Positions 11,729 to 14,327 of a DNA stretch of 23,501 nucleotides are shown one piece after another. Each line of letters opens with the position of its first letter. The first letter of the stretch is position 1. The notes under the pieces were generated by a model. That model searched no databases. It was not told the DNA's origin and worked only from the letters and a program-made list of their open reading frames with translations. The translations under genes were made by a program, and so were the position numbers. The stretch spans positions 1 through 23,501 of the forward strand of contig JAPDJW010000008.1 in assembly GCA_029258885.1 (NCBI GenBank), given 5' to 3'. This DNA is from Thermoproteota archaeon (GTDB lineage: Archaea > Thermoproteota > Thermoprotei > Thermofilales > B9-G17).

Positions 11729-12034
11729 ATGGATCCGGTACATAAGCTCTTCCGTAAGGCCGAGAGAATTATAAGTGAAGGCAGGGTAGTTAGAATAAGC
11801 CCCTACATGTTCTACGTTATAGGCGACCACGGCAAATACTTCGTCTACGTCGATAAATCGAAAGTTAAATGCCTGTGTCCAGGCTATAGGAAAAGAGGTT
11901 ACTGCTCCCACTCAATTTCTGTCCTACTGATTCTGCTTAGAAAAGAGTATAGAGAAGCCCTAGAGAAAGGGCTTAGGGATAGGCTTGAACACCAACTCGA
12001 ACTGATTAAGGCCGGTAGGATACATCCAAGATGA
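11729..12034 (+). CDS. SWIM zinc-finger protein
   Basis: CxC-x7-CxH motif (CLCPGYRKRGYCSH) preceded by beta strands, in 101 aa. Confidence 0.85.
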   Translation: MDPVHKLFRKAERIISEGRVVRISPYMFYVIGDHGKYFVYVDKSKVKCLCPGYRKRGYCSHSISVLLILLRKEYREALEKGLRDRLEHQLELIKAGRIHPR

Positions 12035-12831
12035 GGAAGATTATTGTTATAGCTACCCCGCACATCCCGTTCTATTACAGGTACACCGCTAGACTAGCTT
12101 TGAAATACATAGCATTAGGCTTCGACACCATATATCTGAGCTATCCAGAGGAGTTGGATGAACTTATCCCAAAGTATATCATTGGAGCACTAAACTTTAA
12201 TGAGATCATGAAGGCTATAGTGGGCAAGCTGACCGATATATACCATAAGCTTTTCCTAAGGATAAAATACTTCCTCGATGCGTTAAAGGAGGCGGGAGCA
12301 TACAACGTAGCTATTAGAGGATACCTGACAGCCGACGCCGTTATAGATCATCTTAAGGGACTCAACAAGCTTCTGCTCCTTACCGCTAGGGCGGCATCGA
12401 TAGGTAGAATTGACAACACAAGACTGATAGAAGCATTGAAGGAGTTAGAATATGCTGGTAATAGGCTAATGGATACGATAGCCGAGAATCTTTCCCACAA
12501 GCTACGTCCAAACTCCATGCTTATCCTAGATAGATCGCTTGAAGAAGTAGCTGATATAGCCTGCAGGGAATATATGGTTCAAAGGATTAAGATATCGCCC
12601 TACATCGAAACTCCTATCGAACACCTACTTAGGGCGTTCAGAGAACATGCTGATGTTGATACACTGGAGAGAATCTTCATAGAGCACGTAGAGTACATAT
12701 CGAAATACATTCTAACGTCTGGAGATCTGGACGAGGCATATTTAAGGTGGGTTAGGGATCGGTGTTTGAGGACAGGTAGGCTTGAGGAATATAAGAGGAT
12801 ACTGAAGATTTTCAATGAAGCCTGGATGTAG
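12031..12831 (+). CDS. Conserved-looking hypothetical protein (266 aa)
   Basis: ATGA overlap with the SWIM gene and normal protein composition. No motif that I can name with confidence. Confidence 0.8.
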   Translation: MRKIIVIATPHIPFYYRYTARLALKYIALGFDTIYLSYPEELDELIPKYIIGALNFNEIMKAIVGKLTDIYHKLFLRIKYFLDALKEAGAYNVAIRGYLTADAVIDHLKGLNKLLLLTARAASIGRIDNTRLIEALKELEYAGNRLMDTIAENLSHKLRPNSMLILDRSLEEVADIACREYMVQRIKISPYIETPIEHLLRAFREHADVDTLERIFIEHVEYISKYILTSGDLDEAYLRWVRDRCLRTGRLEEYKRILKIFNEAWM

Positions 12832-12838
12832 ATTCTGC

Positions 12839-12887
12839 TCAGCACCTTACCGTATCATCATTATCAGGATGAGAGGAGGCTCATCAC
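12839..12887 (-). ncRNA. Box C/D guide sRNA (2'-O-methylation guide)
   Basis: The minus strand reads C box GTGATGA, 13-nt guide GCCTCCTCTCATC, D' CTGA, TA, C' ATGATGA, 12-nt guide TACGGTAAGGTG, D CTGA. All four boxes are perfect consensus with canonical spacing, in an intergenic gap. Confidence 0.9.
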
Positions 12888-12952
12888 CATCAATTGTATT
12901 TAATGTCAAAGATATATGTTCATATATATCTCCGATTAAAACTTATTATCCG

Positions 12953-13207
12953 ATGTCTGATAAAAGTTTATTCTGAAAGTAGGATCTACACTACATCCGA
13001 GATAAGAAACTCACTAACATTGAACTCGGAGGAAAATAATTGCAGTAGTATCAGGCGATAAGTTAATCCTGAAAGCAAAGCCTACAGTATTAAGTCTATT
13101 TAAAAAAGCCCTATATCTCCCGTCCAGTATCAGTAGAGGAGATTAAGAAAAGTAGGGGAGAGATGCTGAAAATGAATGGAGAAGTAATTTTCAGTAAATA
13201 TAGCTAA
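12953..13207 (+). pseudogene. Frameshifted AbrB/MazE-type antitoxin remnant
   Basis: Three frames joined give IKVYSESRIYTTSEIRNSLTLNSE / KIIAVVSGDKLILKAKPTVLSLFK / KPYISRPVSVEEIKKSRGEMLK, which follows the AbrB pattern (KVDxKGRIxIPxEIRxxLxL...xxDKLIL). Shifts fall at A-runs near 13033 and 13102, and ATG 12953 is out of frame. Confidence 0.6.
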
Positions 13208-13289
13208 TTGGAGACAATACATTAACCTATTTAATTACGGTCACAGCCTAGAAGTTTAAACCAAAGTTGATGTAAAATAAATGGGGGTA

Positions 13290-14327
13290 TTAATGTTCTG
13301 TTCTAGGGAGCTCTATTACCGACCCACAATATTCGCAGGTTATTGAGTAGGCTTCTATAGGCCTCCTGACGGGTGCTCCACAGTATGGACACTTTATTAC
13401 TTCAGGCCTCGTAACCGCTATGGATATGCTTATCTTCTCCTGCCCTATATCGCCTCTAATTATCCTATTGATTGTCGAAATAAAACTCTTAATCTCTGCG
13501 TCCTTAAGGTCAAATATCAGCTGCCTGCCGTCTCTCAGGTTAACGTATACTCCCTTCCACTCAAACAGACCCACCCTACCCTCGCTTACTTGAGTTATCT
13601 CGCTAACAGGCACATTTACTATAAGGTTCTTCACAAGCTTCTTCTTAACTGCTATGAATAGAACTTTTTTAACGGGAACTTCCTTATGCTCCTCAAACAG
13701 CAGACGTCTATCAGTTAGGAGTATATAGCCCTTAAGCTTCTCCTCCATCATAAGCTTAGCCTTATAGCATTCAACAAGGTGCTCGCCCTCACTTAGGTTG
13801 AATGAAGCAGACTGAAGCAGATTTAGATCTCTGATTATCCGGTTGACCTCATTATTTATGCTCTCAAAACTCCTATCCAGTCCACTTAGCATCCCTTCTA
13901 CTCTTGAGATATCCTGACTTATCCTCATCTCGACTCTATTGAACTCTGACTCGAGAAAGTTAAGCTCTGAAGTAAAGTAGTCTACGCTGGAGGGATCCAC
14001 TGAATAATACACCCTATCCACCTTGCTCTTAAACGCCGCTATCTCAGGTAGGTGGCTCCCCTTAATAGCGTTTGAAATAGCTATGTATTCGTGCCTAAAC
14101 CTCATCCATTGCTCAGTTAATTTTTCGAGATCCTCCTCCAGATGCTTCTTAAAGACATAGCCCCTCCTTCTAACGTCCTTAAGCTTAAGCGGTAAGTTAA
14201 TGGAATATTCGTCAAGCTTAAGCGCAATATCCAGAACATTGTTAAGCCTAGATTCGAGGCTAATAACTCTATTCCTAAGCTCCTCAGCCCTGCGCCTAAT
14301 CTCCTCAACCCTATCTTCCTGAGACAT
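13290..14327 (-). CDS. Hypothetical protein: long helical/coiled-coil N-terminus, PH-like beta domain, C-terminal zinc ribbon
   Basis: Heptad-like helical N-half; GYILLTDRRLLFE...NVPVSEITQV...VYVNLRDGRQLIF...IKSFISTINRII resembles PH/GRAM folds; C-terminal CPYCGAP...CEYCGS. Confidence 0.75.
   Translation of the reverse strand: MSQEDRVEEIRRRAEELRNRVISLESRLNNVLDIALKLDEYSINLPLKLKDVRRRGYVFKKHLEEDLEKLTEQWMRFRHEYIAISNAIKGSHLPEIAAFKSKVDRVYYSVDPSSVDYFTSELNFLESEFNRVEMRISQDISRVEGMLSGLDRSFESINNEVNRIIRDLNLLQSASFNLSEGEHLVECYKAKLMMEEKLKGYILLTDRRLLFEEHKEVPVKKVLFIAVKKKLVKNLIVNVPVSEITQVSEGRVGLFEWKGVYVNLRDGRQLIFDLKDAEIKSFISTINRIIRGDIGQEKISISIAVTRPEVIKCPYCGAPVRRPIEAYSITCEYCGSVIELPRTEH

What the first reader, a model, noticed from the sequence alone, without database searches (positions are those of the whole stretch)
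12839..12887. Hidden dual-guide box C/D sRNA apparently targeting two neighbouring 16S rRNA sites
Seen directly: perfect C (GTGATGA), D' (CTGA), C' (ATGATGA) and D (CTGA) boxes with 13- and 12-nt guides on the minus strand, 7 nt past the stop of the convergent 266-aa gene. From recalled conserved archaeal 16S sequence: the D' guide GCCUCCUCUC(A) complements (U)GAGAGGAGGU just before GCAUGG (about E. coli 1043-1052), and the D guide CGGUAAGGU complements ACCUUACCG (about E. coli 978-986). The established +5 rule would predict 2'-O-methylation at the first A of GAGAGGAGG (about 1044-equivalent) and the first U of ACCUUACC (about 981-equivalent). The two sites flank helix 33 in the small-subunit head, the pattern expected if one sRNA also chaperones local folding (inference). 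Standard gene callers would miss this gene.
Basis: partly seen in the sequence, partly recalled or inferred. Interest (0 to 1): 0.8.

Follow-up and report, generated by a model that had tools for sequence, protein, structure and literature searches.

The report
Ordinary dual-guide archaeal C/D box sRNA
This is almost certainly a real but ordinary archaeal box C/D guide RNA gene, one of dozens in this genome, whose two guides match two nearby sites in the organism's own 16S rRNA and should direct 2'-O-methylation there.

Summary
On the minus strand, 12887-12839 reads box C, a 13-nt guide, box D', a short loop, box C', a 12-nt guide and box D, ending 7 nt past the stop of the convergent 266-aa ORF. 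Only two loci in the 2.1-Mb genome fit this strict architecture, against none in 10 shuffles.

In the host's own 16S, the D' guide forms 10 contiguous Watson-Crick pairs plus a G-U (1001-1011). Its +5 target is A1003, about E. coli 1044. The D guide forms 9 pairs (944-952) with +5 target U947, about E. coli 981. The sites lie 56 nt apart.

Fibrillarin, Nop5 and L7Ae are encoded. The same guide pair recurs, without synteny, in ten other genomes of the class.

The Rfam 16S structure places U947 in the linker before the helix-32 strand. It places A1003 in the 3-nt junction between helix 33 and helix 34, so the sites bracket the helix-33 domain.

About half of archaeal C/D sRNAs are such double guides, and the chaperone idea is already published (Dennis et al. 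2015). One nuance stands out. The host lineage's 13-nt D' spacer moves the predicted site 2 nt relative to relatives with 12-nt spacers. The scan had already noted other C/D sRNAs in this genome, but not this locus.

Verdict: a new member of a known kind, of low interest.

The parts
12839..12887 (-). Box C/D sRNA core from box C to box D (49 nt). The covariance-model match spans 12836-12890.
12881..12887 (-). Box C, GTGATGA.
   Evidence: matches the RUGAUGA consensus.
12868..12880 (-). D' guide (13 nt), antisense to host 16S 1001-1011. Predicted 2'-O-methylation target is A1003.
12864..12867 (-). Box D', CTGA.
12855..12861 (-). Box C', ATGATGA. Three nt (TAA) separate CTGA from UGAUGA, forming the K-loop.
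12843..12854 (-). D guide (12 nt), antisense to host 16S 944-952. Predicted target is U947.
12839..12842 (-). Box D, CTGA.
12911..12929 (-). AT-rich stretch 24-42 nt upstream of box C. Possible TATA-like promoter element (inference only).
   Evidence: Read directly; no tool for archaeal promoters was available.
12031..12831 (+). Convergent 266-aa ORF whose stop lies 7 nt from box D. This is context, not part of the sRNA.
   Evidence: no Pfam family; no relatives found.

Best explanation
This is a canonical archaeal double-guide box C/D sRNA gene of about 50-55 nt on the minus strand. The transcript should fold its C/D boxes into a K-turn and its C'/D' boxes into a K-loop. These bind L7Ae, a Nop5 dimer and two fibrillarins. 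Each spacer then pairs with nascent 16S rRNA, and fibrillarin methylates the 2'-OH of the nucleotide paired to the fifth spacer base upstream of D' or D. The D' guide targets A1003 (about E. coli 1044), the first base of the 3-nt helix-33/helix-34 junction. The D guide targets U947 (about E. coli 981), in the linker before helix 32. The two sites are 56 nt apart and bracket the helix-33 domain, so one RNP could hold both ends of that domain during small-subunit head folding. Shown here: the boxes, the spacing, complementarity to the host 16S, presence of the protein machinery, and conservation of the guide pair in relatives. Inferred: expression, actual methylation, and any chaperone effect.
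For: All four boxes are perfect with 13- and 12-nt spacers. The architecture occurs 2 times in the genome against 0 in 10 shuffles. The D' guide forms 10 Watson-Crick pairs plus a G-U, the D guide forms 9, each has a Watson-Crick pair at +5, and the two sites are 56 nt apart in the host 16S. Shuffled guides rarely reach this (14/20000 and 105/20000). No comparable complementarity was found in 23S or in 27 tRNAs. Fibrillarin, Nop5 and L7Ae genes are present. A model built from homologues found the same guide pair in 10 other genomes of the 120-genome class, including three of the same order (L137, L138, L140). Conservation is confined to boxes and guides, and flanks and gene context differ. In two further families the same CGGTAAGGT guide sits in the D' slot next to a guide for 16S about 925-934, some 15 nt upstream of the ACCUUACCG site, which supports that site as the target. 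Guide position 10 varies C, G or T across lineages, and the 16S base opposite varies G, C or A across the same class. Generic C/D Rfam models hit exactly this interval, though below threshold.
Against: There are no expression, RNP-association or methylation data. There is no terminal stem beyond the boxes. Rfam families score below gathering (best 21.7 bits against 45). The D' duplex has a mismatch at spacer position 2. The guide is C/U-rich, so 6.5% of shuffled versions find 10 or more pairs somewhere in the purine-rich rRNA. The D guide also fits a second 16S site (985-992, 8 pairs with one G-U). Guide-target covariation could be compared only at family level, because no genome with a homologue has the relevant 16S region assembled. 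The only other genome of the host's family gave no match.
Confidence: 0.88

Rival explanations
1. The sRNA is real, but the methylated base at the D' site is not A1003. It could be A1005 as predicted for the 12-nt-spacer relatives, or the 13-nt spacer with a position-2 mismatch could make this guide weak or act in binding only.
For: Relatives in two other families have 12-nt D' spacers whose +5 base pairs with the second A (A1005). One same-order relative points to G1004. Archaeal spacers are typically about 12 nt (PMC7229835).
Against: The site is measured from box D', and extra spacer bases loop out at the box C side (PMC7229835). The 13-nt spacer with the same register recurs in two other same-order genomes (L137, L138), which argues that it is a maintained and functional form. 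The +5 pair itself is Watson-Crick.
Confidence: 0.12
2. The sRNA is real, but the D guide acts on the second ACCUU-type site in 16S (985-992, +5 at U988). That would put both targets within about 15 nt of each other, as in Ignicoccus sR310.
For: The host 16S has ACCUUGCC at 985-992, which pairs over 8 positions with one G-U. Iho sR310 and the L130/L141 relatives carry guides that fit this site better.
Against: The 944-952 site gives 9 uninterrupted Watson-Crick pairs, against 5 flanking a wobble. The guide base opposite 952 tracks the 16S base at that position across lineages. In families f9 and f11 the same guide is partnered with a guide for 16S about 925-934, next to the 944-952 site.
Confidence: 0.07
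3. The interval is a chance cluster of box-like motifs, or part of a small protein-coding ORF or the 3' UTR of a neighbouring gene, and is not a guide RNA.
For: Short ORFs overlap the interval (12815-12976 +, 12600-12845 -). No Rfam match reaches gathering.
Against: There were 0 matches in 10 shuffled genomes. Both guides match adjacent sites in the host 16S. The same roughly 50-nt unit is conserved in ten other genomes in unrelated gene contexts.
Confidence: 0.02
4. Besides guiding methylation, read-through from the sRNA runs antisense into the 3' end of the convergent 266-aa gene and affects its expression.
For: Box D ends 7 nt from that gene's stop codon, and no obvious oligo-T terminator follows.
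Against: The homologues sit in entirely different gene contexts, so any such effect is not a conserved property. There are no transcript data.
Confidence: 0.05

Closest known systems
Archaeal 'double guide' box C/D sRNAs (Dennis, Tripp, Lui, Lowe, Randau 2015, PMC4644070)
   Same: Four boxes, spacers of about 12 nt, the +5 rule, and both targets within 100 nt in one rRNA. That paper proposes that simultaneous binding aids local folding.
   Different: This particular guide pair is not among the 489 sRNAs of the seven species listed there. The host belongs to a sparsely sampled family with only two genomes.
Ignicoccus hospitalis sR310 (supplement of PMC4644070)
   Same: It pairs a guide against the GAGGAGGUGCAU stretch at the start of helix 34 with a GGUAAGG-type guide. 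It is marked twice in the same 16S block of the supplementary alignment.
   Different: Its D' guide is shifted several nt 3' into helix 34. Its D guide fits the other ACCUU-type site just upstream of the junction. Its boxes are degenerate.
Methanopyrus kandleri sR124 (supplement of PMC4644070)
   Same: Its D guide GACTCCTCTCAG is antisense to CUGAGAGGAG, and its +5 base is the G between the two junction A residues. It is also a double guide acting on the helix-34 region.
   Different: Its partner guide targets the GUCAGCUCC stretch further 3' in 16S, not the ACCUUACC site. The methylated base is 1 nt from the host's predicted site.
Pyrobaculum sR56/sR57 superfamily (Lui et al. 2018, PMC6009581)
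   Same: Indels inside guides offset a shared core by 2 nt and shift the target by 2 nt. The same relation holds between the host-order 13-nt D' spacer and the 12-nt form in relatives.
   Different: The guides and targets are different, and no homologue of the present sRNA was found in the Pyrobaculum/Thermoproteus-like family (0 of 29 genomes).
Rfam RF00095 snoPyro_CD and Sulfolobus sR families (RF01304, RF01147 and others)
   Same: Generic C/D architecture. These models align end to end with 12836-12891.
   Different: Scores are far below gathering (21.7 against 45 bits; 18 against 40), so the locus is not a member of those genus-level families.

Membership tests
Archaeal box C/D methylation-guide sRNA | Terminal box C (RUGAUGA) and box D (CUGA) | tested here: met
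   GTGATGA at 12887-12881 and CTGA at 12842-12839.
Archaeal box C/D methylation-guide sRNA | Internal D' and C' boxes joined by a short loop (K-loop) | tested here: met
   CTGA, then TAA, then TGATGA.
Archaeal box C/D methylation-guide sRNA | Spacers of about 12 nt | tested here: met
   13 nt (D') and 12 nt (D). The 13-nt form is shared by L137 and L138.
Archaeal box C/D methylation-guide sRNA | At least 9 bp of complementarity to rRNA or tRNA, with a Watson-Crick pair at the +5 position | tested here: met
   10 and 9 Watson-Crick pairs covering +5 in the host 16S.
Archaeal box C/D methylation-guide sRNA | Host encodes L7Ae, Nop5 and fibrillarin | tested here: met
Archaeal box C/D methylation-guide sRNA | Expressed as a discrete small RNA of about 50-60 nt bound by the core proteins | not testable with these tools
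   No transcriptome or RIP data are available.
Archaeal box C/D methylation-guide sRNA | 2'-O-methylation present at the predicted nucleotides | not testable with these tools
   This needs RiboMeth-seq, primer extension or mass spectrometry.
Double-guide sRNA in the sense of Dennis et al. 2015 | Both guides target one rRNA within 100 nt | tested here: met
   U947 and A1003 are 56 nt apart. The definition is in PMC4644070.
Rfam RF00095 snoPyro_CD | Score at or above the gathering threshold (45 bits) | tested here: not met
   21.7 bits, E = 0.049 on a 701-nt search. No hit at gathering.

The most novel reading that the evidence does not exclude
Within one conserved sRNA family, indels next to box D' have walked the methylation site across all three nucleotides of the helix-33/helix-34 junction of 16S. 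The host order's 13-nt spacer points to A1003, one relative points to G1004, and the 12-nt forms point to A1005. Meanwhile the partner guide stays fixed on U947. This would be a natural series showing that the position of the methyl group within the junction is interchangeable, and that the dual tether is what selection keeps.
Probability: 0.35. Interest if true: 0.35.

Novelty: new member of a known kind. Interest (0 to 1): 0.2.

Why it matters
It adds one correctly predicted, unannotated guide RNA and two predicted 2'-O-methylation sites (16S about E. coli 981 and 1044) to the annotation of a poorly sampled thermophilic archaeal lineage. It also documents a guide pair conserved across several families of the class. 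It does not change how C/D sRNAs are understood. Double guides, methylation hotspots around helix 34, guide drift by small indels and the chaperone idea are all in the literature. The only mildly useful point for specialists is the 2-nt retargeting tied to a 13-nt spacer, which gives a simple test case for the +5 rule and for whether the exact junction base matters.

Tried and rejected
- **Relatives of the 266-aa neighbour:** the genome-collection search found none, and the exact-protein look-up found no record. The organism's name was therefore not obtained. Placement near Thermofilum-like genomes is my inference from 16S signatures and genome sizes.
- **Collection-wide pattern scan for the D' guide:** it returned mostly chance bacterial matches. 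Only the archaeal ones were sRNAs.
- **Strict dual-guide pattern in 400 sampled genomes of the phylum:** it matched only the host, which reflects sampling and guide drift rather than absence.
- **Per-genome guide-target covariation:** not possible. 16S searches in 15 genomes carrying related sRNAs found none covering the target region, and the one hit covers only model positions 4-828.
- **D' guide module in same-order genomes that do have a 16S:** the search gave only coding-region chance matches with no box C.
- **Literature search for the guide strings:** nothing relevant turned up. The supplement of Lui et al. 2018 is not held.
- **Folding the 85-nt 16S segment alone:** uninformative (z = -0.41). 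I used the Rfam SSU consensus structure instead.
- **Synteny of homologues with the window's genes:** none.
- **tRNA targets:** none, with a best run of 6 among 27 tRNAs. Intron-containing tRNAs may have been missed.

Full report
**1. What is in the sequence**

Read on the minus strand, 12887-12839 is GTGATGA, then GCCTCCTCTCATC, CTGA, TA, ATGATGA, TACGGTAAGGTG and CTGA. All four boxes match the consensus perfectly. The spacers are 13 and 12 nt, and three bases separate CTGA from the UGAUGA of box C'. Box D ends 7 nt after the stop codon of the convergent ORF at 12031-12831.

The unit lies in a 458-nt gap between that ORF and the next minus-strand gene (13290-14327). No terminal stem flanks the boxes. 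An AT-rich stretch 24-42 nt upstream of box C (12911-12929) could serve as a TATA-like element. I read that directly and could not test it.

**2. Is it more than chance?**

A strict expression for the full four-box architecture matches two places in the 2.1-Mb genome and none in ten locally shuffled genomes. A relaxed version matches 13 places against none.

Rfam gives nothing at gathering thresholds. In a permissive search, seven generic archaeal C/D families (snoPyro_CD, sR12, sR5, sR9, sR43, sR7 and sR14) align end to end with about 12836-12892, all below threshold.

**3. Targets in the host's own rRNA**

The window is a whole contig of a 26-contig assembly. The assembly has one 16S (C3:67677-69174) and one 23S.

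| Guide | 16S pairing | +5 target |
|---|---|---|
| D' (13 nt) | 10 contiguous Watson-Crick pairs at 1001-1010, a G-U at 1011, an isolated G-C at 999 and a mismatch at 1000 | A1003 |
| D (12 nt) | 9 contiguous Watson-Crick pairs at 944-952 | U947 |

The best alternatives in 23S reach 7 and 6 pairs, and in 27 tRNAs 6 and 5.

The D' guide is C/U-rich and rRNA is purine-rich, so 6.5% of shuffled D' guides find 10 or more pairs somewhere in rRNA, and 3.3% of shuffled D guides find 9 or more. Requiring the second site to lie within 100 nt of the first is far more stringent. Only 14 of 20000 shuffled D guides and 105 of 20000 shuffled D' guides pass that test.

A weaker second fit of the D guide exists at 985-992, with 8 pairs including one G-U.

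**4. Where the sites lie in 16S**

I aligned the host 16S segment to the Rfam archaeal SSU model. U947 sits in the single-stranded linker between a short hairpin (helix 31 by my reading of standard numbering) and the 5' strand of a long-range helix (helix 32).

A1003, G1004 and A1005 form the 3-nt junction between the closing strand of the helix-33 domain and the 5' strand of helix 34. The D guide covers the linker plus the first three bases of helix 32. The D' guide covers the last two bases of helix 33, the junction, and the first five or six bases of helix 34.

The E. coli equivalents (about 981 and 1044) agree with the column correspondence in the 16S alignment of the Dennis et al. supplement, combined with my recollection of E. 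coli numbering around C1054.

**5. Machinery and repertoire**

Fibrillarin and Nop5 are adjacent on contig 3, and two L7Ae-family genes are present.

A scan for box-C-like, spacer, box-D-like half units with 9 or more pairs to rRNA covering +5 lists 60 candidates; some of them will be chance matches. One is another sRNA (C1:343823-343871, minus strand) whose D guide targets 16S 941, six bases from U947.

Earlier notes of this scan also list many C/D sRNAs elsewhere in this genome. This locus is therefore one of a large set.

**6. Relatives**

The host's family holds only one other genome, and that genome gave no match.

A collection-wide scan for the D' guide core between box-like motifs returned mainly chance bacterial hits. 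It also returned several archaeal sRNAs with the same two guides. A sequence model built from five of them was run over all 120 genomes of the class. It found the guide pair in ten other genomes, several of which supplied the training sequences:
- **Same order:** three genomes (L137, L138, L140).
- **One genus of family f7:** four genomes, including two copies in one MAG.
- **Family f65:** two genomes.
- **Partial match:** one same-order genome keeps the D guide with a different D' guide (L139).

None was found in 29 genomes of the family whose 16S signature matches Pyrobaculum and Thermoproteus.

Conservation stops at the boxes, because the flanks are unrelated. None of the loci encodes a relative of the window's neighbouring proteins. 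This fits the reported mobility of archaeal sRNA genes (the review PMC7994747 has a section headed 'Genomic Context Variability'; I read only its outline).

In three genomes of two further families, the same CGGTAAGGT guide occupies the D' slot. There it is paired with a D guide antisense to AUUGGAGUCA, which in the host is 16S about 925-934, just upstream of the ACCUUACCG site. That independently supports ACCUUACCG as the site this guide module recognises.

**7. Covariation**

Across the class, the 16S base after ACCUUACC is G in the host and some same-order genera, C in others and in families f6 and f7, and A in one genus. The guide base opposite it varies as follows:

| Guide base | Lineages |
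|---|---|
| C | Host, L137, L138 |
| G | The f7 and f65 relatives, and L139 |
| T | L140 |

The f7 guides fit the C found in the f7 genomes that have a 16S. This is suggestive only. No genome with a homologue has that 16S region assembled, and a further search for homologues in genomes that do have a 16S found only chance matches.

**8. A register shift**

The D guide points to the same U in every family member. The D' guide does not:
- The host, L137 and L138 have 13-nt spacers ending CA plus two bases, so +5 pairs with the first junction A (A1003).
- L140, with a GCGA D' box, points to G1004.
- The 12-nt forms in f7 and f65 point to A1005.

Published work supports reading the site from box D'. 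The target is the fifth base upstream of D or D', position 1 is unpaired, at most 10 nt of substrate are recognised, and extra spacer loops out at the box C side (PMC7229835). A 2-nt target shift caused by guide indels is described for Pyrobaculum sR56 and sR57 (PMC6009581). M. kandleri sR124 is predicted to hit the middle G. The junction is thus a known hotspot with a drifting exact position.

**9. Comparison with the literature**

Dennis et al. 2015 define double-guide sRNAs as those with targets within 100 nt. They count 262 of 489 as such and propose that they help local rRNA folding. Their supplementary 16S alignment marks several sRNAs at both regions.

None of their listed sRNAs has this guide pair. 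The nearest are Iho sR310 and Mka sR124. The present RNA is therefore a new family member of a well-known kind, not a new mechanism.

**10. Verdict**

The gene is ordinary for a thermophilic archaeon. Expression, methylation and any chaperone role remain untested. I put the probability that this is a functional methylation guide acting at the two named 16S sites at about 0.88. Interest is about 0.2.

Noticed in passing
L007:1482-1530 (G000:C7:61706-61754, + strand): The only other locus in the genome with four perfect boxes. Its guides TTGAACTCCCCGC and GGTTTCTGGTCG each pair over 11 bp with 23S, with +5 at 699 and 880. These targets are 181 nt apart.
   Followed up: partly
G000:C1:343823-343871 (- strand; no locus fetched): An sRNA whose D guide AAAGGTTTCCGGC pairs over 12 bp with 16S (+5 at 941) and whose D' guide targets 16S 1204. 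Its duplex overlaps that of the present D guide, so the two RNPs cannot occupy the 16S 937-952 region at the same time. It resembles Pca sR47's D' guide.
   Followed up: no
L145, L146, L147 (families f9 and f11 of the same class): The same CGGTAAGGT guide occupies the D' slot of a different sRNA. Its D guide TGACTCCAAT is antisense to 16S AUUGGAGUCA, an example of a guide module re-partnered between sRNAs.
   Followed up: partly
L130:1359-1413 and L141:1501-1555 (one MAG, G445): Two copies of the sRNA sit on different contigs with near-identical 5' flanks and a few differences in box C'. Their D guide (GAAGGCAAGGTT) fits an ACCUUGCC site instead of ACCUUACC. This could be a duplication or strain heterogeneity in the bin.
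   Followed up: no
window 12031-12831 (+): The 266-aa ORF, overlapping the SWIM zinc-finger ORF at 11729-12034 by 4 nt, has no Pfam family and no relatives in the genome-collection scan.
   Followed up: no
window 12832-13289: The 458-nt intergenic gap holds only the sRNA. The rest is AT-rich, with a near-palindrome ATATATATGAACATATAT (12929-12912, minus strand). Only sub-threshold Rfam noise was found there.
   Followed up: partly
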